64,000 nt of DNA from Lachnospiraceae bacterium. GTDB taxonomy: Bacteria > Bacillota > Clostridia > Lachnospirales > Lachnospiraceae. The notes under the pieces were generated by a model. It did not search any database. It worked only from the letters and a program-made list of their open reading frames with translations, and was not told where the DNA came from. A program made the position numbers and the translations under genes. Positions 8,578 to 30,042 of the stretch are shown piece after piece. Numbering within the stretch: the stretch's first letter is position 1; each line of letters starts with the position of its first letter. Location: positions 7,257-71,256 of the forward strand of contig JAFXFO010000033.1 of the NCBI GenBank assembly GCA_017520425.1. The letters are read 5' to 3'.

Positions 8578-8643
8578 CTGCCATCGCCTTTCTTATACAT
8601 AAAATACACAGACAGCCCCGCACAAAGCGGGGCCCATCTATTA

Positions 8644-9021
8644 TTACTCTTCTTCCTCGTTTCCTTCCTGCGAAGACATTACATCATCAATCTTCTTTGA
8701 CATATTCACGCCATACTCTATGGACTGATCCATAATAAAGGTAATGGCAGGTGTATTACGCAGATTGATTTCCTTAGCCAGCTTAGACTTAATAAAGCCC
8801 TCTGCACTTTTCAACCCCTGATAGGTGGCATTTCTGGCTTCCTCATTGCCCAGTACGCTGATCCATGCCTTGCAGCTCTTCAAATCCGGAGCCACTTCCA
8901 CAGCCACCACACTGGTCAGAGGACTGATGCGGGGATCCTTGATTTCTCCACGGATAATCTCCGCCAGAACCCTCTGCACCTCCCCGTTAATACGGGTATT
9001 TTTAATGCTGTTTTTTCTCAT
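8644..9021 (-). CDS. rbfA: 30S ribosome-binding factor A
   Basis: IKDPRI..VEVAPDLKSCKAWIS..LRNTPAITF pattern; follows infB. Confidence 0.97.
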   Translation of the reverse strand: MRKNSIKNTRINGEVQRVLAEIIRGEIKDPRISPLTSVVAVEVAPDLKSCKAWISVLGNEEARNATYQGLKSAEGFIKSKLAKEINLRNTPAITFIMDQSIEYGVNMSKKIDDVMSSQEGNEEEE

Positions 9022-9226
9022 AAAAATCCTTTCTTCAGGAATCGCTTACGCTTGTCATGCAGAAGCGCCATAAAACATTCCACTTAGGCACGCTCTCGCT
9101 CCGTGGAACGCGTAGCGGTTCTAAATTCGAAAACACCTCATTAAGAACCGACGTGTTCCAAGGGCCTTGCGTTGGAACATTTTACGGTGCTTCTGCTTTC
9201 CAAGCTTACGCTTCCTTCAAAAATCC
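9022..9226 (-). repeat. Highly structured REP/MITE-like intergenic element flanked by 8-bp direct repeats
   Basis: Outer stem 9059-9082/9173-9196, inner stem 9104-9122/9143-9160, several GNRA-type loops on the minus strand; AAAAATCC at 9022-9029 and 9219-9226. Confidence 0.7.
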
Positions 9227-9251
9227 ATCCAACATTCCCTCGAAAATATCA

Positions 9252-12227
9252 TTATCTGGGAACTTCTACCATGATATATGCTTCTACAATATCCAGTTCC
9301 TGCATCTGGTCGAAGCCGTCGAATACAAGACCACATTCGAAACCGGTCTTAACTTCCTTCACATCATCCTTAAATCTCTTAAGGGATGCCAGTTCACCTT
9401 CGTAAATCTGATTGCCTTCACGGGTGATACGAATCTTACAGCCTCTCTGGAAGATACCATCTAATACGTAAGAACCTGCAATATTACCCACTGCGGATGC
9501 CTTGAAGATCTGGCGAACCTCTGCATGACCGATAATCTTCTCCTCGTAAACAGGATCCAACATACCCTTCATAGCTGCCTGAATATCTTCGATTGCCTGG
9601 TAAATAACCTTGTATAATCTTACATCCACGCCTTCACGCTCTGCAGTAGCCTTTGCGGTAGCATCGGTACGTACGTTGAAACCGATGATAATTGCATTGG
9701 ATGCACCTGCCAAAGTAACGTCGGATTCGTTAATGGCACCAACACCGCCATGGATGCATTTTACCACTACTTCTTCGTTAGACAGCTTCATCAAAGACTG
9801 CTTCACTGCTTCCACACTACCCTGTACGTCTGCCTTTACGATTAAGTTCAATTCCTTCAGATTGCCTTCCTTAATCTGGGAGAACAAATCATCAAGAGAC
9901 ATTCTGGACTTGGTTTCCTCCAGCATCTTCTCCTTGTTCTGTGCCAGATAGGTTTCTGCATAGGTCTTAGCCTGCTTGTCGGTAGCATGGGAAAGGAAAA
10001 CCTCACCTGCTGCAGGTACATCGGAAAGACCTAAAATCTCTACCGGTGTGGAAGGCGTTGCTTCCTTCACTCTTCTGCCCTTATCGTCAATCATAGCTCT
10101 TACCTTACCATAGCAAGCACCTGCGGAAATAAAGTCACCTACATGCAAAGTACCCTTCTGTACCAATACGGTAGCCACAGGACCGCGTCCCTTATCCAAC
10201 TCAGCTTCGATTACAAGACCTCTTGCCTGACGGTTAGGATTTGCCTTTAACTCCAGCACATCTGCGGTCAGAAGAATCATTTCCAAAAGGTCCTGAATAC
10301 CTTCGCCTGTTTTTGCGGAAACAGGTGCAAAAATAGTACTTCCGCCCCAATCCTCTGAAATTAATTCATATTCGGTCAGCTCCTGCTTAACACGTTCAAT
10401 GTTTGCAGAAGGCTTATCAATCTTATTTACGGCTACGATGATTTCAATACCTGCCGCCTTAGCATGGTTAATTGCTTCCACGGTCTGGGGCATTACACCA
10501 TCATCTGCTGCAACTACCAAGATAGCAATATCCGTAGCGGTTGCACCACGCATACGCATCGCGGTAAACGCTTCATGTCCGGGTGTATCCAGGAAAGTAA
10601 TCTTTCTGCCGTTCGCATTAACGGTATACGCACCGATATGCTGGGTAATACCACCTGCTTCCTTGTCGGTTACATTGGTCTTACGGATGGCATCCAAAAG
10701 GGAAGTCTTTCCATGGTCAACGTGTCCCATTACACAGATAACGGGAGGTCTTTCCATCAAATCTTCCTCTGCCTCTTCCTCTTCCTTCAAGAGTTCCTCA
10801 ATTACGTCAATCTTTTCTTCCTTTTCACAAAGAATATCGTATTCCATCGCAATATTCTCTGCATCTTCATAAGAAATTTCCTGATTTACGGTTACAATCT
10901 TTCCTTCCATAAACAGTTTCTTCACAATTACGGAAGGCTGCAACTTCATCTTATCAGCCAAGTCCTTGATGGTGATGGTCTCAGGCAATACGATTACCTT
11001 GATTACCTCTTCTACCACTTCTTCTTTCTTCTTTTCCGGCTTGATGAAGCGTCCCGGTTTGTTCTTCAGTGCTTCCTCTTCCTCATAGAAGTGATCCTTC
11101 TTGTTTCTCTTATCCTTTTCCTGACTGATACGTCTCTTTTCTTCTTCTCTATGCTTTTCGGTATCCTTTATAGGGGCTGCATCACCGCCGAAATTATTCT
11201 TGCTGCGATTGTCCCTACTAAACTTATCTCCCTGACGTCCGTCATTTCTGCCGCCACGGCTGTCTCTGTCCTTGCCGCCGAAATCCTTGCCGCCAAAGTC
11301 TTTTCCTCCAAAGTCCTTGCCGCCGAAATCTTTACCGCCATTGTTTCTGCGGTCGCCCTGGTTAAAGCCGGGTCTGCCCTGCATACCGCCTTCCGGTCTA
11401 TTGTAACCACCCTGACGATTGCCCTGACCGCGATTGTCACGGTTTTCTCTGTTATCACGGTTAAACTGACCGTTTCTGTCCTGGCCCTGACGATTGTCGG
11501 GACGATTTCCTCGATCATTATTTCTCTCAAAACCACCCTGACGCTGATTATTTCTGTCTCCCTGGGGTCTGTTATTGGTATTCTGAGGTCTTTCCTGTCT
11601 GTTTTCTCTAACAGGTGCTGCCACTTCCGACTTCACTGTTACTTCCGGTGTTTGTACCTGAACCTCTACCTTTTCAGCCACCACATCCTTCTTAGGCTGA
11701 GACTGAGGCTGTGACTTCACCATCTGCACACTGGGTGTGGGAGAAGGAGGAGTCAGGGGTTTAATAGCAGGACGTGATACAGGTGCCTGTGAAGGTCTGT
11801 TACCTGCATTATTATATCCGCCGGGTCTGTTTTGATTCTGAACCGGTCTGTTCTGGCTCTGCCCCTGTACCGGTGCCTTGGACCTTTGTCCGCCGGGAAT
11901 CTTTGAATTTTGCGGATTGCTTACAAAGATAATGGTTTTCTTTTTCTTCTTTGGTGCTTCCTCATTTGCTACCGGCTTCTTTTCTTCAGAGGTAGCCTCG
12001 GTTGCCTCCTTCACCACTTCTTTGGTTTCCGCTTCTGTCACTTTTTTATCTGCCAAATGCGTTTCTCCTTTTTTACCGAATGCTTTACGCACGCTTTCAA
12101 TCGCATCCTCCTCTACGGAGCTTTGCGCCGCCTTTGCTTCAATACCCTTTTCCTGTAAAAAAGCAAGGACTTCTTTACTTGTTATATCAAGCTCTTTTGC
12201 TAACTCATGTACTTTCATTTTTGCCAT
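9252..12227 (-). CDS. infB: Translation initiation factor IF-2
   Basis: [24 protein letters not shown] GTPase motifs; long low-complexity N-terminus; [13 protein letters not shown]-terminus. Confidence 0.99.
11267..11340 (-). repeat. 15-bp coding tandem repeat (GGKDF x4 + GGKDR) in IF-2 N-terminal region
   Basis: Protein [27 protein letters not shown]; DNA units vary at synonymous sites. Confidence 0.9.
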
Positions 12228-23768: not shown

Positions 23769-25490
23769 TCACCTCTCACAGGCATTTTCACATAAATATA
23801 CTTTATCTTTATGTGCACCTTCTTCTATCAAAATCTCTTTAATGTTCCAATCGTATTGATTTAATATCGCTTCTACCTGTTCCTGAGATACAGTATTCTT
23901 CACAACCATGACAAATTCTGTACCATAAAGGACAGATGCAGTATCCTTTCTGTTTTTCAGTTCTTCCGGAGTCACCAATAAGGTTTTTTCATAATTTATA
24001 AACTCCATCAGGTTGTCATAGTAACCGGAACCTTCGTACAAACAGATACAACTCTTTTCTTTGTACTCTTGGGATACAGCCACCTGCTCCTGATAGCCTT
24101 TATACAAGTAGCTGCCGTCATACGTTAACAGTTGTATCAGACAATAGCAAACCAGCAGACATCCCATAACTGTCCGTATCGTCTTACCTGCAGATGGTGA
24201 TTTTACTGATAACGCAACGACCAACCAACTAATGACAAAGGGAAATACTGCCATCAGGTATCGGTCCACATACATGGGAGACATTTTCGCCGCCAACAAA
24301 AAATACACCAATACCGGAACACAATACAAAAGTATTTCTGTTCTGTACAACTTTTGCCTGATAAACAAGAAGATTATTGCAGTCAGGAAAGCTAAGACCA
24401 CTATCAGTCCAAATACCCAATTACCAAAACACCTGTCTAATAATATTTCTCCAAATGCTGCCAATCTTTGTATATACTGTCCCAGACCGCCTCGTAAGTT
24501 TCCAAGTGCTTCTACCCCTCTGGAACTGGAGAACACATCGGATATTGCAAACGGATATCCCACCACACCAATCAGAGCAGCTATCAGCATTGAACGAATA
24601 TAAACAAGCAACTCCTTAATTCTCTTGCTTCTCCATAATGCCAATACCATCGCCAGACTGAGTGCAATACAGTAAAACAGGAAAAAGTACTGGGTCCAAA
24701 AGCCCAAAACCGTAACAAATATGAGTAGCTTATTCTTTTTATCAAAGTTCCTCCCCCACCATTTATCCATCTGGAGATAAAAGGTCAGTAAACAAAGGAA
24801 AGTTAAAACGCCATACATTCTGATTAACAGCATGGTAGCTACTGATGCTTGGGAACATCCGTAAAGTAGCGCTGACAACATCCCCAGTCGCATCCCTTTT
24901 CCGTCTGAAGTTATCCCGTACTTATCCAACATCATGCCGCATTTCATAATAACAATGGCACTGCATATTATCATGAAAATATTGATTACACATCCCATAA
25001 CCGGATGTATCTTGCCCACAAACAATGAGGATATGGTATGCAATAGCATAAAGTGTACGGGAGGATGATTATCATCCTTCACATTAAAATATACGGAAAG
25101 GTAGTTAAAGCTGTCCGTACCATCCGTAGTCAGATAATCACGAAACTGCGCTTTGCTTATCCAAACCGGTTCTTCATATACATCCGCTTTATAGCTGAGC
25201 ATCTTGCTATTTCCACGATTCTTCAGCACGTCCACTATGGTATTACTGATATTCCCCAGTTTTTCGCCCAGGGAATCCGCCTCTATTTCTTCCTGTACAA
25301 ACTTGGCAAGTCTTCCTACCGGCTGTGTTGGTACAATCCAAGGATTATATTCCGCATTTGCCATCTCGAAGCTTATTAGTTCATCCATGTGATATCCTTC
25401 TTTTTGGAAGGCAAACACCAATTGAATCACCAGGATACCTAATATAATCAACAATTGCCATCTATACTTTTTTGCCAACTGAAACATCAT
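23769..25490 (-). CDS. GT-C fold integral membrane glycosyltransferase (ArnT/PMT-like)
   Basis: TM1 followed by YHMDE, then DDNHPPVHF..LH, RMYG, RY motifs; many TM helices; soluble C-terminal domain. Confidence 0.75.
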   Translation of the reverse strand: MMFQLAKKYRWQLLIILGILVIQLVFAFQKEGYHMDELISFEMANAEYNPWIVPTQPVGRLAKFVQEEIEADSLGEKLGNISNTIVDVLKNRGNSKMLSYKADVYEEPVWISKAQFRDYLTTDGTDSFNYLSVYFNVKDDNHPPVHFMLLHTISSLFVGKIHPVMGCVINIFMIICSAIVIMKCGMMLDKYGITSDGKGMRLGMLSALLYGCSQASVATMLLIRMYGVLTFLCLLTFYLQMDKWWGRNFDKKNKLLIFVTVLGFWTQYFFLFYCIALSLAMVLALWRSKRIKELLVYIRSMLIAALIGVVGYPFAISDVFSSSRGVEALGNLRGGLGQYIQRLAAFGEILLDRCFGNWVFGLIVVLAFLTAIIFLFIRQKLYRTEILLYCVPVLVYFLLAAKMSPMYVDRYLMAVFPFVISWLVVALSVKSPSAGKTIRTVMGCLLVCYCLIQLLTYDGSYLYKGYQEQVAVSQEYKEKSCICLYEGSGYYDNLMEFINYEKTLLVTPEELKNRKDTASVLYGTEFVMVVKNTVSQEQVEAILNQYDWNIKEILIEEGAHKDKVYLCENACER

Positions 25491-25578: not shown

Positions 25579-25614
25579 AAAAAAGCGTTGCTCCATATTT
25601 CTATGGAACAACGC
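25579..25614 (-). terminator. Intrinsic terminator closing the SHOCT-dynamin unit
   Basis: GCGTTG.TCCATA/TATGGA.CAACGC stem with U6 tract on minus strand immediately after the dynamin stop. Confidence 0.75.
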
Positions 25615-25620
25615 CGGTTT

Positions 25621-28134
25621 TTAAATACTTCCCCAAATCTTCTGATTCAGTTCTTCATCACGCTTTGCTACCAAATCTAACACAGCTTTCGCTTTTGCCT
25701 GTTTGGTAATCGCTTCTTTCTCATCATTGATAAGGTATTCCAAATTGCTGGAAATCATATCAATATTTTCCTTGAATTCACGAATCAACTCGGTTGTTTT
25801 TGCCTTTGCCACTTCCATGATTTCTGCAATATATGATTCATACTGCATCTTGGTAGTGGTGTCAAACATTTCGCAAATATCATTCTTATAGGACTTCTTA
25901 TCATTGGTAGAGAAGATAAAGATTGCTTTCTGCTTGTTAATATACTCATCCATCTTCAAAGCACGTAAGGTAGAAGGCGGAACCTGTGTATCAGCAACAT
26001 TGGCAATTCTCTTTACCAAGCCTTCATCAATACCCTTGTAACCAGTGATTTTCTTCACCAACAGGGAACGAAGTTCCTCAATCTGCTTTCTTAAGATTCT
26101 TTCACGATTTTCCTTGTAGTAATCATCGATTTCAAGCAAATAGCGGTTTAATTCACTACAAATGATATTATTCTTTTCTTCAAACACTTCCGGTCTGATT
26201 GCAATCCACTTCATCTTGTCTGCAATCTTCTCTGCCTGTTCTTTTCTGCTCTGAACGATAGAATTCAAAGTGGCAATCTCTTCAAACTTCACCGGCAATT
26301 CCTCCGGTCCGCAGGTAAACATATAACCCGCATAAGTTGCATCAATATCCTTAACCATGGTTGTTTTCATGGTCTGAATATTCTCGGAAATCTGCTGCTT
26401 AGACAATCTCGCCTGAGCTTCGATAGCTTCGTAGTCATCCTTAATGAAGTTAACTACGCTGGAAATACCATCGTACAAGCCCTTTGCCTTTACTGCCAGT
26501 GCATACTTCTTTGCATACTTAACAATCTCACGCTCTACGGCATACATACCGGAGTTTACGAAGATACGCTGCAAAATAGGTGCTAAGCTCTTTTCGTCTG
26601 CCTCATCGCAAATCTTTAACTCTGCCATACAGTCAGCAATCATCTGCTTGGTTTCGTTGTCTGCATCTGCCATCTTATTCAACTTAAAGAACATACCGGT
26701 ATCAATCTCGGCATCATCATTCTTAATCAATAAAGGGTCAGAAATATGTACGTTGTTGATTTCGTTTCTATGATTTGCAAGCCACAAACGCTCATCTTCT
26801 GTATCTACATTATTCTTAATCGCCTTTGCGATATAAGCTGCCTTTGCAGATACGAAGAACAATCTTTCGTTTGCCAAATCAATGCACTCGTTCTTTTCAT
26901 TATAAATCTTGTCAGTTTCCTTTAAGGAAATCTCCACCTTCTTGTCCTTCAGATTGCTTAAATCTGCAAGGCTTCTGGTATCTGCCTGATTGATAATATG
27001 TAAGGAACGACTCAAATCAATATGTACTTTATCCTTGGTCTCTGCACTCTCTCTGGATGAATTAATCAACTTATACAGAATAGAGTTACCGGTACCTTCC
27101 ATCTTGGTAGGCTCATAAAGAATCACCAGGATTGAGTTGGTCTGTTGCTGAAGTGCTTTACGTAATACCATTAAATGCTCGTTGGAATTACTGTCTGTAC
27201 CCGGTGTATCATAGAAGGTAAAGCTGATATTAGGATCCAGCATGATAGGGAAATGTACCTCTATAATACCGTCTATATACTCCTCACACTCATCTGAAGG
27301 CATGTTGGGTATATTGTTCAAACACTTTAATATCTGGCAAAGCTGTTCATGCTGCAAGAGATGGAACACTACTGCCGAATTAATCTCATTCTGTACCAAT
27401 TTCTTGGTAAACTCACATTCAGCGGTTGACGAGAAAACAAAGCTCTGCTTCTCTTCTGACCATACAATACTTACATTAACACCTTCATTAATGTCTTTTT
27501 TCTTAACCGTAAACATTACTGCCGGATTATCGTCACTCTGAATACGGAACATTTTAGCAGTTTCGGAATTAATGCTTTCAGGCAAAATTCTCTTACCAAT
27601 CAATGTATTGATAAATGTAGATTTACCGGAACTGTATGTACCTACCAAACACAGATTGATATCACTCTCACTCAGTTTCTTACGCTTTGTTTCGAACACT
27701 TCCTTACGTGACTGGAAATGTACCTGAATATCCGAGTCTTTTAATTCGGTCTCAAATAATGATATGGTCTCATCACAGAATTCATTAATCTGCTTAAAAA
27801 TTACATCTACAGCTGGTAATTCAATAAAATCCTTTATGAATACTCTATCTTCACCTACTGATTTATTGTACTCAGCTATCTTCTCAATAAAGTCTTCATA
27901 ATCTACTTTGGTTCCCTTAAACACCAAATTGATCTTATCATGTGAAAACTGTTCCCATATATCGTCAAAAAACTGATTACCCTGATTCTGAAGTAAAAAC
28001 TCTCCATTCTCCGGTGCGTACTGACTTAAGTTTGGACACATTTTATATGGGATATCTAAAAACTCACCTTTAACCTTAGCCAAAAAGCGAATTTCTTTCT
28101 TCACAGGATGATACATTATCATCAATTCTTTCAT
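25621..28134 (-). CDS. Dynamin-like GTPase (bacterial dynamin-like protein)
   Basis: G1 GTYSSGKST, ILP..ETA (G2), FYDTPG (G3), INQAD (G4 variant), FFVSA; long helical C-terminal half. Start refined to ATG 28134 (SD GGAGG). Confidence 0.85.
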   Translation of the reverse strand: MKELMIMYHPVKKEIRFLAKVKGEFLDIPYKMCPNLSQYAPENGEFLLQNQGNQFFDDIWEQFSHDKINLVFKGTKVDYEDFIEKIAEYNKSVGEDRVFIKDFIELPAVDVIFKQINEFCDETISLFETELKDSDIQVHFQSRKEVFETKRKKLSESDINLCLVGTYSSGKSTFINTLIGKRILPESINSETAKMFRIQSDDNPAVMFTVKKKDINEGVNVSIVWSEEKQSFVFSSTAECEFTKKLVQNEINSAVVFHLLQHEQLCQILKCLNNIPNMPSDECEEYIDGIIEVHFPIMLDPNISFTFYDTPGTDSNSNEHLMVLRKALQQQTNSILVILYEPTKMEGTGNSILYKLINSSRESAETKDKVHIDLSRSLHIINQADTRSLADLSNLKDKKVEISLKETDKIYNEKNECIDLANERLFFVSAKAAYIAKAIKNNVDTEDERLWLANHRNEINNVHISDPLLIKNDDAEIDTGMFFKLNKMADADNETKQMIADCMAELKICDEADEKSLAPILQRIFVNSGMYAVEREIVKYAKKYALAVKAKGLYDGISSVVNFIKDDYEAIEAQARLSKQQISENIQTMKTTMVKDIDATYAGYMFTCGPEELPVKFEEIATLNSIVQSRKEQAEKIADKMKWIAIRPEVFEEKNNIICSELNRYLLEIDDYYKENRERILRKQIEELRSLLVKKITGYKGIDEGLVKRIANVADTQVPPSTLRALKMDEYINKQKAIFIFSTNDKKSYKNDICEMFDTTTKMQYESYIAEIMEVAKAKTTELIREFKENIDMISSNLEYLINDEKEAITKQAKAKAVLDLVAKRDEELNQKIWGSI

Positions 28135-28165
28135 GATGCTTCCCTCCAATAGTCATTCTCATCAC

Positions 28166-29812
28166 TTATAATTCGCTCATCAGCTTAGTCTTGTAAGAAG
28201 TAAACTCAGCTTCAGTTAACATACCTACCTTCTGAAGTTCAACCAGGTTGTTTGCTCTTACCTTGAATTCTTCTACAGAATGGCTGGATACAAATATCTC
28301 ATCAATACACTTCTGCTTCAATGCATCGTACTCTGCGTCTGTAATAAATCCAACCTGAGGAAGCATTCTGTACATAGCTACTCTGGTAGTATAATCTTCT
28401 ACCATATCTACTTCTGCCAATAATTTGCTGCGGCGTGTCACATACTCATCACCGGTCAGGCATTCGCCTTCTTTCAAAGCTCCCATTCTGTTGATAATAG
28501 CCTTCAACTCATCCGGAGTCTTCCAAGGCATATCTAACGAAGTAGAGATTAATTCATTCTGCATGCTCGCCAACTCAGTATCGGAGATATATTTCTCCTG
28601 TGCCAATACAGGCCACTTTTTCAGCTTGCTTACCAAAGATTCTCTGGAATCATTCTTGGTAACCTTGATTTCGTCAAGTAAATTTTTAACCTTCTCATCA
28701 AAACTACTTTCCTCAATCAACTTACAATCTTTCAAAACCGGAAGTCTCTGCAGCTTACGAACAAATACTTCTTTCTCATCATCCAGCTTAAACTCAACAT
28801 CCTCTACCAAAGATACCTTGCTCTTTTCGTATTCCTCAGCAGTAATTACTTCGCCAATCTGAAGGAAAGATAACTTCTGAACATTACGACGATACTCATA
28901 GATATCGCTCACATCCAAATCACAACATTCCTTGATAACATCAATTCGATTAGCTTCAAATTCCTTGTCAGAAAGTAATCCGCAATCCTTTAATGCAATC
29001 AGCTTCTGAATCTTATCGTTAAAATCCTTCAAATCACAGAATTCACTAACCAATTCCAAACGTTTTGAAATATATTCTTTTTCACCCAACAAGCCGCAGT
29101 CTTTTAATACTCCCAGCTTGTCCATTCTCTTCTGGAATTCCTCTTCGCTCAGCTCAGGTTTCTTTGCAACAGGCTCTTCCTTCACTACCGGTGCCGGTTC
29201 GGGTACCGGTACAGGTATAGGTTCCGGAGCAGGTGCAGGTGTCGGCTCAATAGGAGCAGGCTTTCCGGGTTCGGGATTTTCCACCGGCTTAGGCTGATTT
29301 GCAGGTCTGGGCTGTTCCTTCACCTCCTGAGGTATAGGTGCAGGTTGTCCTGACATAGGCTTATCGGCAGGCTTAGGCTGATTTGCGGGTCTGGGCTGTT
29401 CTACAGGCTTCGCCTGAGGTGCAGTATTACCAGATACTGCAGCAGCAATTTCCTCCGCCGTAGTTGCCTTAGGTCCCATCTTTAATTCCTTTAACAGATT
29501 TCTCACTTCGTTAATCTGCTTTAACTGGGGAAGGAATACCTTTATCTTCTTTGTACCATACAATCCCTTTTCCTGTGCTGTAAATGACAACGCAGAAAAT
29601 CCCATGTATTCTTCTTCCTTGATATCGGATATATCCTGGAGTGCAAACGCAAAGTCACCTGTATATCCGTTTCTTCCATCGGAATTACAAATTTCTGCTT
29701 TTCCGGATATCTTGGTGCTGTCAATTTTAATAAATAGGGCATCCTCTTTTTTAAACAGTCTGTTCCTTACGGAATTACCTGACCCACATGTATAAATACG
29801 TGCTTCTTCCAT
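28166..29812 (-). CDS. Hypothetical protein: beta-rich N-terminal domain, Pro-rich linker, eight SHOCT-like repeats
   Basis: SD GAGG; repeated L..L...G.(L/I)(T/S)..E(F/Y)...K..L unit eight times in the C-terminal ~330 aa. Confidence 0.85.
   Translation of the reverse strand: MEEARIYTCGSGNSVRNRLFKKEDALFIKIDSTKISGKAEICNSDGRNGYTGDFAFALQDISDIKEEEYMGFSALSFTAQEKGLYGTKKIKVFLPQLKQINEVRNLLKELKMGPKATTAEEIAAAVSGNTAPQAKPVEQPRPANQPKPADKPMSGQPAPIPQEVKEQPRPANQPKPVENPEPGKPAPIEPTPAPAPEPIPVPVPEPAPVVKEEPVAKKPELSEEEFQKRMDKLGVLKDCGLLGEKEYISKRLELVSEFCDLKDFNDKIQKLIALKDCGLLSDKEFEANRIDVIKECCDLDVSDIYEYRRNVQKLSFLQIGEVITAEEYEKSKVSLVEDVEFKLDDEKEVFVRKLQRLPVLKDCKLIEESSFDEKVKNLLDEIKVTKNDSRESLVSKLKKWPVLAQEKYISDTELASMQNELISTSLDMPWKTPDELKAIINRMGALKEGECLTGDEYVTRRSKLLAEVDMVEDYTTRVAMYRMLPQVGFITDAEYDALKQKCIDEIFVSSHSVEEFKVRANNLVELQKVGMLTEAEFTSYKTKLMSEL
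29286..29401 (-). repeat. 32-bp direct repeat (2 copies, 84 bp apart) encoding EQPRPANQPKP
   Basis: GGCTTAGGCTGATTTGC(A/G)GGTCTGGGCTGTTC at 29286-29317 and 29370-29401. Confidence 0.9.
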
Positions 29813-29967
29813 AAAGTTAGCCTCCTCTCAGTCTCAAGCACTACCCCTAATAATGCTTGATTCTTATCTTATTTTTTGTTATTTATTACATTTTGAAAAA
29901 CACAAAAACCACACATTCACTATTATCCCCACGATAATAATTGAATGCCGCTTTAAGTCTTAATGTA

Positions 29968-30042
29968 ATGATAGCAAATTTTTCCCCTTATTTCAAGAGA
30001 ATTATATAAGATAATGATAGCAATAACTTCCAAATATTTCAA
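29968..30042 (-). promoter_or_regulatory. Two tandem extended -10 sigma-A promoters for the SHOCT-dynamin unit
   Basis: TTGAAA-N17-TATCAT with TG at 29996-29968 and again at 30042-30014. Confidence 0.65.

What the first reader, a model, noticed from the sequence alone, without database searches (positions are those of the whole stretch)
25579..30042. Self-contained two-gene unit: multi-SHOCT protein plus a single dynamin-like GTPase (best candidate novel system)
Seen: own tandem promoters, two co-oriented genes 31 bp apart, own terminator, placed between unrelated housekeeping-type genes. The GTPase has G1-G4 motifs (GTYSSGKST near 27615-27642, DTPG near 27200), an extra ~150-aa N-terminal domain (YHP..F.GT..DYEDF) and a long helical stalk without a TM helix. 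Known: bacterial dynamin-like proteins usually act as pairs or fusions (DynA, LeoABC/Eleos, C. jejuni DLP1/2) in membrane repair and anti-phage defence; SHOCT domains promote oligomerisation. Inference: here the usual second dynamin is replaced by a SHOCT-array adaptor that may recruit or polymerise the GTPase, forming an undescribed membrane-remodelling or anti-phage module.
Basis: partly seen in the sequence, partly recalled or inferred. Interest (0 to 1): 0.8.

Follow-up and report, generated by a model that had tools for sequence, protein, structure and literature searches.

The report
Dynamin-like GTPase with PH–SHOCT partner
A gut Lachnospiraceae bacterium encodes a lone dynamin-like membrane GTPase directly behind a protein made of a PH-like domain, a proline-rich tether and eight SHOCT repeats; the two genes are usually far apart in related genomes yet are kept or lost together, so they probably work as an undescribed pair.

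Summary
Two minus-strand genes lie 31 bp apart: a 548-aa SHOCT-repeat protein and an 837-aa dynamin-like protein (DLP). They have two conserved tandem promoters, a conserved leader hairpin and a strong terminator.

It is not a self-contained or mobile cassette. The genes are adjacent and co-oriented in only 8 of 77 DLP loci (window included), all from the closest relatives. Elsewhere both sit among housekeeping genes, often on different contigs. No defence model fits.

The genes are nonetheless coupled at genome level:
- In 101 genomes of the same genus, 25 have both, 2 the DLP only, 1 the SHOCT protein only, and 73 neither.
- On a marker-gene tree each trait changes about 11 times. Independent contrasts go the same way about 6 times and never the opposite way (p≈0.03). 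Two control genes show no link.
- Deeply divergent DLP types (~30% identity) always come with the matching SHOCT-protein type.
- Exceptions exist: G346, G146 and G176 have the DLP only, and G151 the SHOCT protein only.

The partner's N-terminus models as a PH-like fold. The DLP has an orphan, highly conserved N-terminal domain. The likeliest reading is an adaptor/regulator plus DLP pair acting at the membrane.

This scan met the same pair on other DNA (e1-4295098) and judged the genes unrelated. My co-occurrence data argue against that.

The parts
30014..30042 (-). Promoter-like site P1 (TTGAAA, 17 nt, TG-n-TATCAT)
   Evidence: Both hexamers and the extended -10 are identical in 4 species while the flanks diverge.
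29968..29996 (-). Promoter-like site P2, 46 nt downstream of P1, with the same boxes
29896..29948 (-). Leader hairpin (29948-29913) followed by a U-rich tract (29912-29896). It looks like a terminator and may be an attenuator.
   Evidence: Fold z-score -3.3. The hairpin is kept in 8 operon-type loci, and 9 pairs in the consensus structure show changes on both sides. No Rfam match.
28166..29812 (-). Gene for the PH-like / Pro-rich tether / 8x SHOCT-repeat protein (548 aa)
29474..29812 (-). PH-like N-terminal domain (residues 1-113): seven strands plus a C-terminal helix
   Evidence: AF2 pLDDT is about 90. Foldseek finds PH/PTB domains with probability 0.97-1.0 and target-normalised TM-score (TMt) of 0.4-0.5. 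No Pfam match.
29156..29473 (-). Proline-rich, hypervariable, disordered tether (residues 114-219; residues 116-215 are 29% Pro)
   Evidence: pLDDT below 50.
28169..29155 (-). Eight SHOCT-like helix-turn-helix repeats (residues 220-548; 16 helices)
   Evidence: AF2 pLDDT 80-94. Pfam SHOCT matches 3 stretches when this part is scanned alone. Each repeat is individually conserved across orthologues.
28135..28165 (-). 31-bp intergenic gap with RBS GGAGGG (28147-28142) and no terminator
25621..28134 (-). Gene for the dynamin-like GTPase (837 aa)
27820..28134 (-). Orphan N-terminal alpha/beta domain of the DLP (residues 1-105)
   Evidence: 80% mean column identity in 20 homologues. No Pfam or PDB sequence match. 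Modelled at pLDDT of about 83.
26755..27660 (-). GTPase domain (residues ~159-460) with G1 27642-27616, G3 27210-27199 and G4 26991-26980
   Evidence: Pfam Dynamin_N covers 162-351. The motifs are invariant.
25624..26658 (-). Helical neck/trunk (residues ~493-837). It includes a conserved hydrophobic loop, KQKAIFIFSTNDKK (~735-748), which is a candidate membrane paddle.
   Evidence: AF2 helices. Foldseek matches SynDLP, BDLP and IniA. The paddle role is inference.
25584..25615 (-). Intrinsic terminator (14-bp stem, T-run)

Best explanation
The two genes encode a two-part membrane-remodelling machine confined, in the samples searched, to part of the Lachnospiraceae.

The motor is a BDLP/mitofusin-class dynamin-like GTPase. 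It carries its own orphan N-terminal domain and has no TM segment.

The partner is a soluble protein built of a PH-like domain, a long flexible proline-rich tether and an eight-unit SHOCT helical array.

Proposed mechanism (inferred, not shown): the partner sits on the cytoplasmic face of the membrane, through its SHOCT array and/or its PH-like domain. It recruits or regulates the DLP, plausibly through the DLP's conserved N-terminal domain. The DLP then uses GTP to tether, fuse or repair membrane.

In most carriers the two genes are unlinked. In the window's lineage they have been joined into one sigma-A-type operon with tandem promoters and a terminator-like leader.

Shown here: the gene anatomy, the folds, the operon signals, the genome-level co-occurrence and the matched divergence.

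Inferred: physical interaction, membrane binding and the cellular role.
For: 1. Folds.
- The DLP model matches SynDLP, BDLP (target-normalised TM-score, TMt, 0.46), IniA (TMt 0.47), Cj-DLP1/2 and mitofusins. A sequence profile hits BDLP 2J68 at 2e-5.
- The partner models as a PH-like fold, then disorder, then 8 helical hairpins.

2. Co-occurrence in 101 genomes of the same genus.
- 25 have both, 2 the DLP only (G346, and G380 at 74% completeness), 1 the partner only (G328, 67% completeness), 73 neither.
- Restricted to high-quality genomes: 10 / 1 / 0 / 42.

3. On a 6-marker tree of 90 genomes each trait needs 11 changes.
- There are 7 independent contrasts on supported branches. The partner goes the same way in about 6 and the opposite way in 0 (p≈0.03).
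- Controls on the same tree show no association: the next-door gene hyp573 (15/9/33/33) and FliF (22/2/57/9). A pilin-like neighbour is also not tightly linked.

4. Of 15 DLP-positive genomes with no adjacent partner, 13 encode a full-length partner elsewhere.

5. In a sample of 300 other genera, all three genera with a close DLP (at least 55% identity) also have the partner, unlinked. Only 4 of the 300 have the partner at all.

6. Matched types.
- DLP types A (at least 66% identity), B (~54%) and C (~31%) pair with partner types of at least 37%, ~25-30% and ~26-30% identity, with no mismatched combination.
- The A-versus-C split is not mirrored in housekeeping markers: r(DLP, partner) is 0.8-0.9, against 0.2-0.5 with markers.

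7. Operon signals are conserved across species.

8. SHOCT-like domains are predicted to anchor proteins to the inner membrane leaflet (PMC11237479).
Against: - Adjacency is confined to one sub-lineage: 8 of 77 loci, window included.
- Each gene can exist without the other in complete genomes. G346, G146 and G176 have the DLP only, and G151 the partner only.
- Within type A the DLP-partner distance correlation (0.78-0.91) is only a little above that with housekeeping markers (~0.75). That part is explained by shared vertical descent.
- The species tree rests on few genes with much missing data. Related genomes are not independent.
- A third factor could drive the joint presence.
- There is no interaction, expression or biochemical evidence.
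- Domain-wise distance correlations single out no interacting domains.
Confidence: 0.55

Rival explanations
1. The two genes are unrelated chromosomal genes that were recently placed side by side in one lineage. The apparent co-occurrence would then reflect only shared ancestry, or a third trait.
For: - The genes are adjacent in only 8 of 77 loci, window included. Elsewhere the DLP sits by topA-codY-flagellar genes, hisH/hisF/UDG, lysA, MatE or PFOR. The SHOCT protein sits by polC, the RNase G-rplU region or topA.
- Single-gene carriers exist.
- Within-type distance correlation is largely vertical descent.
- An earlier follow-up in this scan reached this view on another genome (e1-4295098).
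Against: - 25/2/1/73 co-occurrence in one genus, with about 11 joint changes on the tree.
- Two patchy or adjacent control genes show no such link.
- 13 of 15 further carriers hold the partner elsewhere.
- The deep types are matched.
Confidence: 0.25
2. The pair is an anti-phage defence system: a DLP effector with a SHOCT-array sensor or scaffold, acting at the membrane like DynA or Eleos.
For: - DLPs act in phage defence (B. subtilis DynA and Eleos/LeoABC; background knowledge).
- Presence is patchy within the genus, with repeated loss and deeply divergent coexisting types.
- There is a weak LeoA hit at the P-loop.
Against: - No PADLOC system matches. The LeoA hit covers about 70 of 559 positions at 5.7e-6.
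- No PHROG link.
- The neighbours are housekeeping genes, not defence islands or mobile elements.
- The genes are usually unlinked.
- The DLP is very conserved (72% mean column identity) and within type A tracks the species markers.
Confidence: 0.12
3. The DLP works alone, using its own hydrophobic trunk loop as a paddle. The SHOCT-array protein has a separate scaffold role, and both merely belong to a larger lineage-specific envelope or division trait.
For: - The DLP has a conserved candidate membrane loop, AIFIF.
- G346, G146 and G176 keep the DLP without the partner.
- Both genes recur near the topA-codY-flagellar region.
Against: - FliF and the pilin-like neighbour do not share the presence pattern.
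- The two genes are fused into one operon, with a conserved 31-55 bp gap in four genus members.
Confidence: 0.08

Closest known systems
BDLP-class bacterial dynamin-like proteins (Nostoc BDLP 2J68/2J69, SynDLP 7ZW6/9EM7, M. smegmatis IniA 6J72) and mitofusins
   Same: Dynamin_N GTPase with G1-G4, followed by helical neck and trunk bundles. These are the best Foldseek and sequence-profile matches. It is a soluble protein expected to bind membrane peripherally.
   Different: - Only 10-14% identity.
- An extra, highly conserved ~105-aa N-terminal alpha/beta domain with no known relative.
- No demonstrated paddle.
- Coupled to a non-dynamin PH-SHOCT partner.
Paired or fused bacterial DLPs: B. subtilis DynA, C. 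jejuni DLP1/DLP2 (5OWV), Streptomyces DynA/DynB, LeoA/LeoBC (Eleos)
   Same: A DLP that appears to need a second, co-inherited protein. In this lineage the two are encoded in one operon.
   Different: - The second protein is not a dynamin.
- The genome has only one DLP.
- NCBIfam DynA scores 40 bits against a cut-off of 1600.
- The PADLOC LeoA hit is marginal.
- The partner genes are usually unlinked.
SHOCT-domain proteins (Pfam PF09851; Eberhardt et al. 2013, PMC3581485)
   Same: The bi-helical SHOCT motif is recognised above Pfam's cut-off. SHOCT is known to be combined with bacterial PH domains in a few proteins.
   Different: - There are eight non-identical tandem copies forming a long helical array, not one C-terminal copy.
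- The array is preceded by a PH-like domain and a 100-aa Pro-rich tether.
- No link to dynamins has been described.
Classical eukaryotic dynamin (GTPase-stalk-PH-GED-PRD)
   Same: The parts list taken across the two proteins is similar: a dynamin GTPase and stalk, a PH-fold domain and a proline-rich segment. This is analogy only.
   Different: - The PH-like and Pro-rich parts lie on a separate polypeptide.
- No sequence relationship between the PH-like domain and dynamin's PH domain was shown.
- Lipid binding is untested.

Membership tests
Bacterial dynamin-like protein (BDLP/mitofusin class) | Dynamin-type GTPase domain with G1 P-loop, G2 Thr, G3 DxxG and G4 | tested here: met
   Pfam Dynamin_N at 1.2e-16. 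GTYSSGKST, T192, DTPG and NQAD are invariant in 35 homologues.
Bacterial dynamin-like protein (BDLP/mitofusin class) | Helical neck and trunk (stalk) bundles flanking the GTPase domain | tested here: met
   AF2 model at pLDDT 73.8 with long helices over 493-834. Foldseek: SynDLP 1e-11, BDLP 2e-9 (TMt 0.46), IniA 3e-8 (TMt 0.47).
Bacterial dynamin-like protein (BDLP/mitofusin class) | Membrane-binding paddle or TM segment | tested here: inconclusive
   No TM helix. There is a conserved hydrophobic loop, AIFIF, between trunk helices, modelled at low pLDDT. Its function was not shown.
Bacterial dynamin-like protein (BDLP/mitofusin class) | GTP hydrolysis coupled to membrane tethering, fusion or fission | not testable with these tools
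   Needs biochemistry.
Eleos / LeoABC defence system | A LeoA-type DLP recognised by the system's model | tested here: not met
   PADLOC LeoA hits only at 5.7e-6, over residues 114-186 and about 70 of 559 profile positions.
Eleos / LeoABC defence system | An adjacent LeoBC-type second dynamin-like protein | tested here: not met
   The genome has one real Dynamin_N protein. The neighbour is a PH-SHOCT protein.
DynA-type fused or paired DLPs | Two dynamin units (a fusion or tandem genes) | tested here: not met
   Single GTPase domain in 837 aa. NCBIfam DynA scores 40 bits against a cut-off of 1600. The genome has a single DLP.
SHOCT-domain proteins (PF09851) | A bi-helical SHOCT motif above Pfam's gathering score | tested here: met
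   35.4 bits for the whole protein and 42.5 bits with 3 stretches for the repeat region, against a cut-off of 27. The model shows 8 helical hairpins.
PH-like fold superfamily | A seven-stranded beta-sandwich capped by a C-terminal helix | tested here: met
   AF2 gives strands at 5-95 and a helix at 100-112, at pLDDT of about 90. Foldseek hits to PH/PTB domains have probability 0.97-1.0 and TMt 0.4-0.5, with weak E-values (1e-2 to 1e-1) because the whole chain was the query.
Conserved two-gene operon / cassette | The two genes adjacent and co-oriented across carriers | tested here: not met
   8 of 77 DLP loci, window included. In 25 genus genomes with both genes: 4 in an operon, 1 divergent, 4 within 7-16 kb, 2 at 55-73 kb, and 14 on different contigs.
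Functionally linked gene pair (phylogenetic profile) | Joint presence and absence beyond what shared ancestry explains | tested here: met
   25/2/1/73 in the genus. 7 independent contrasts: about 6 the same way, 0 opposite, p≈0.03. Controls are negative. Caveat: the marker tree is thin and exceptions exist.

The most novel reading that the evidence does not exclude
A 'split dynamin': in this bacterial lineage the membrane-targeting PH-fold module and the proline-rich tether are supplied in trans by a dedicated, co-evolving SHOCT-array adaptor. In classical eukaryotic dynamin both parts are built into the motor protein itself. The adaptor would dock on the DLP's orphan N-terminal domain. Matched adaptor/motor types (A, B, C) would reflect interaction specificity. 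This would also give the SHOCT domain its first defined cellular role.
Probability: 0.25. Interest if true: 0.75.

Novelty: new variant of a known kind. Interest (0 to 1): 0.55.

Why it matters
Bacterial dynamin-like proteins are still poorly understood, and the known accessory proteins are mostly other dynamins. SHOCT is a widespread domain with no established function.

A lone DLP is here co-inherited with a PH-like/SHOCT-array protein, and the two are fused into an operon in one lineage. That makes a concrete, testable adaptor-motor pair. It could show how a TM-less bacterial dynamin is brought to the membrane and what SHOCT arrays do.

There is also a methods point. Gene-neighbourhood surveys alone had dismissed the pair, both in an earlier follow-up of this scan and in my first 25 calls. 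Only genome-level profiles revealed the link.

Tried and rejected
- Neighbourhood conservation. The adjacent arrangement is lineage-restricted, so the 'cassette' reading was rejected.
- Defence annotation. PADLOC gave only a marginal LeoA P-loop hit. PHROGs gave nothing useful.
- Third-partner candidates. These were the downstream GT-C-like hyp573 (54 of 101 genomes, unlinked pattern), flagella via FliF (88 of 101) and a pilin-like 664-aa neighbour (39 of 101). None shares the pair's profile.
- Mirror tree as evidence of co-evolution. Overall r is 0.81. Within type A it is largely explained by vertical descent, so I rely only on the matched deep types.
- Domain-by-domain distance correlations. 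These were uniformly high (0.64-0.93) and point to no interface.
- DLP N-terminal domain. No Pfam or PDB sequence relative.
- Rfam scan of the locus. No match.
- Wider distribution. There was no DLP match at 1e-20 in 349 other sampled Clostridia genomes (only 2 candidates per genome were scored). It was found in 5 of 300 other genera of the family.
- Literature. No paper in the held library links SHOCT and dynamin.

Full report
**What is there**

Two minus-strand genes occupy 25621-29812. The upstream ORF (28166-29812, 548 aa) and the downstream ORF (25621-28134, 837 aa from the ATG at 28134, with GGAGGG 7 nt upstream) are 31 bp apart, with no terminator between them.

A 14-bp-stem terminator follows at 25615-25584. 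Two promoter-like sites (TTGAAA, 17 nt, TG-n-TATCAT) lie at 30042-30014 and 29996-29968. The raw count of promoter-like sites in the region is no higher than in shuffles. However, both sets of boxes are identical in four species while spacers and flanks diverge, which supports two real tandem promoters.

The ~150-nt leader contains a hairpin (29948-29913) followed by a U-rich tract. Its fold z-score is -3.3. The hairpin is kept in all eight operon-type loci, and 9 pairs in the consensus structure show changes on both sides. Rfam has no match.

The flanking genes are glutamate dehydrogenase upstream, and a GT-C-like membrane protein, a DHH phosphoesterase and RNase H downstream.

**The GTPase**

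Pfam gives Dynamin_N at 1.2e-16. G1 GTYSSGKST, T192, G3 DTPG and G4 NQAD are invariant in 35 homologues.

The AlphaFold model (pLDDT 73.8) shows three parts: an N-terminal alpha/beta domain (1-105), a GTPase domain, and long helical bundles. Foldseek places it with SynDLP, Nostoc BDLP (target-normalised TM-score, TMt, 0.46), IniA (TMt 0.47), Cj-DLP1/2, mitofusins and LeoA, at 10-14% identity. A sequence profile reaches BDLP 2J68 at 2e-5 and the mitofusins.

There is no TM helix. A conserved hydrophobic loop between trunk helices (KQKAIFIFSTNDKK, about residues 735-748) is a candidate paddle; this is inference.

The N-terminal domain is the most conserved part, at 80% mean column identity. It has no Pfam or PDB relative.

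The genome has no second DLP. In a library of 1.84 billion representatives the family is small: 85 clusters at E<1e-30.

**The partner**

Pfam finds SHOCT above its cut-off. The alignment of 35 homologues and the AlphaFold model (pLDDT 77.8) show a fixed three-part architecture:
- Residues 1-113: seven strands plus a C-terminal helix.
- Residues 114-219: a disordered, hypervariable tether; residues 116-215 are 29% proline.
- Residues 220-548: sixteen helices forming eight SHOCT-like hairpins, each individually conserved between orthologues.

Foldseek matches the N-terminal domain to PH/PTB domains with probability 0.97-1.0 and TMt 0.4-0.5. There is no TM segment.

The founding paper tested oligomerisation and did not find it (PMC3581485). 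A later comparative study predicts that SHOCT-like domains anchor proteins to the inner leaflet of the membrane (PMC11237479).

**Is it a cassette? No**

I fetched 79 DLP loci from species-representative genomes, of which 76 carry a full-length DLP; with the window that makes 77 loci. The SHOCT protein is adjacent and co-oriented in only eight of these 77: the window, L005-L009, L025 and L074. All are the closest relatives (DLP at least 77% identical). It is nearby on the opposite strand in three more.

Elsewhere the DLP is flanked by topA-codY-flagellar genes, hisH/hisF/UDG, lysA, MatE, PFOR and the like. More distant SHOCT-protein homologues sit next to polC, next to the RNase G-rplU region, or upstream of topA.

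No defence genes or mobile elements are nearby. PADLOC gives only a marginal LeoA hit over the P-loop. Up to this point my reading matched an earlier follow-up of this scan on another genome (e1-4295098), which judged the two to be separate genes recently joined.

**Genome-level coupling**

Searching whole genomes changed that reading.

- Same genus. In 101 genomes of the window's GTDB genus, 27 have the DLP and 26 the partner (strong matches). Of these, 25 have both, 2 only the DLP (G346 at 99% completeness, G380 at 74%), and 1 only the partner (G328 at 67%); 73 have neither. Among the 53 high-quality genomes the table is 10/1/0/42.
- Arrangement. In the 25 genomes with both genes, the arrangement is an operon in 4, divergent in 1, 7-16 kb apart in 4, 55-73 kb apart in 2, and on different contigs in 14.
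- Further carriers. Of 15 more DLP carriers without an adjacent partner, 13 encode a full-length partner elsewhere.
- Other genera. In one genome from each of 300 other genera of the family, 5 have a DLP and 4 a partner. All three with a close DLP (at least 55% identity) have both, unlinked.
- Class level. In 349 other Clostridia genomes no DLP match at 1e-20 was found.

**Control for shared ancestry**

I built a tree of 90 genus genomes from pnp and five neighbouring genes. Carriers are scattered across it, and each trait needs 11 changes.

On supported branches there are 7 independent contrasts in DLP presence. The partner goes the same way in about 6 and the opposite way in none (sign test p≈0.03).

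The same test gives no association for the gene next door, hyp573 (15/9/33/33), or for FliF (22/2/57/9). A pilin-like neighbour is not tightly linked either.

The tree is thin: many rows have only pnp, and deep forks are unresolved. The counts are therefore indicative, not exact.

**Matched divergence**

DLPs fall into three types relative to the window: A (at least 66% identity), B (~54%) and C (~31%, separated by a very long branch). Partner identities are at least 37%, ~25-30% and ~26-30% in the same genomes. No mismatched combination and no genome with two types was seen.

The two protein trees share 12 of 30 bipartitions, including the major split.

Overall distance correlation r(DLP, partner) is 0.81-0.93, against 0.2-0.5 with housekeeping markers. 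Within type A the markers also correlate at about 0.75, so that part is ordinary vertical descent. The informative signal is that the deep A/C split is shared by the two proteins and is not seen in the housekeeping markers, even though the genes are unlinked. Domain-wise correlations do not single out an interface.

**Exceptions and limits**

G346, G146 and G176 (all at least 98% complete) have a DLP without a detectable partner. G151 has a full-length partner without this DLP. The link is therefore strong but not obligatory.

A third, unseen factor could drive joint retention.

**Most likely mechanism**

My confidence in a functional pair is 0.55. The proposal is a two-part membrane-remodelling machine. 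The PH-like/SHOCT-array protein sits at the cytoplasmic face of the membrane and recruits or regulates the TM-less DLP, plausibly through the DLP's orphan N-terminal domain. The long proline-rich tether gives reach. The DLP uses GTP to tether, fuse or repair membrane.

Rivals, with my confidence in each:
- Unrelated genes recently joined (0.25).
- An anti-phage system (0.12). This would fit the patchy distribution and the deep types, but not the housekeeping contexts, the lack of linkage or the strong conservation.
- A DLP that works alone within a larger lineage-specific trait (0.08).

**Novelty**

The DLP fold and the SHOCT motif are both known. The pairing of a lone DLP with a PH-like/SHOCT-array protein is not described in the held literature or in PADLOC.

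I rate it a new variant of a known kind. The same pair was met earlier in this scan on other DNA (e1-4295098, and e1-4295100 for the promoters and leader). The present work adds the genome-level coupling and the PH-like fold.

Noticed in passing
window 29896-29948 (-); the equivalent leaders of L005-L009, L025 and L074: A terminator-like hairpin plus U-tract lies inside the ~150-nt 5' leader of the operon. It is conserved in 8 species with compensatory changes and has no Rfam family. It may be a transcription attenuator or an unknown cis-regulator.
   Followed up: partly
window 23769-25490 (-): The 573-aa protein after the terminator has no Pfam hit itself. It is 26-27% identical to 586-aa PMT_2/GT87-like (GT-C) proteins that also follow the DLP in L011, L012, L087 and L088. 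It is absent at this spot in the closest relatives (L025, L005, L074). It is present in 54 of 101 genus genomes, with no link to the DLP.
   Followed up: yes
L013:8638-10632 and equivalents; G000:C28:140228-142150: A ~660-aa protein with an N-terminal pilin-type methylation motif, plus three small genes, lies convergent to the DLP in many loci and near the flagellar cluster. It is found in 39 of 101 genus genomes, partly overlapping the DLP carriers.
   Followed up: partly
G336:C8:13088-14122 and G347:C73:1165-2190: These are 860-870-aa ORFs that match only the N-terminal domain plus GTPase half of the DLP (28-29% identity, E about 1e-14). The genomes have no SHOCT-array partner. They may be a fourth, partner-less branch of the family.
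   Followed up: no
L055-L057, L061, L080 (about 8600-10250): In one DLP sub-clade (66-67% identity) an uncharacterised 520-590-aa ORF with no Pfam hit starts within -1 to +3 bp of the DLP stop. This suggests translational coupling to a different downstream partner.
   Followed up: no
G329/G346 versus G364: In G329 both the DLP and the SHOCT protein group with those of G364 (support 100 in both protein trees). The marker tree instead places G329/G346 among type-C carriers. This is either transfer or replacement of both unlinked genes, or an error of the thin marker tree.
   Followed up: no
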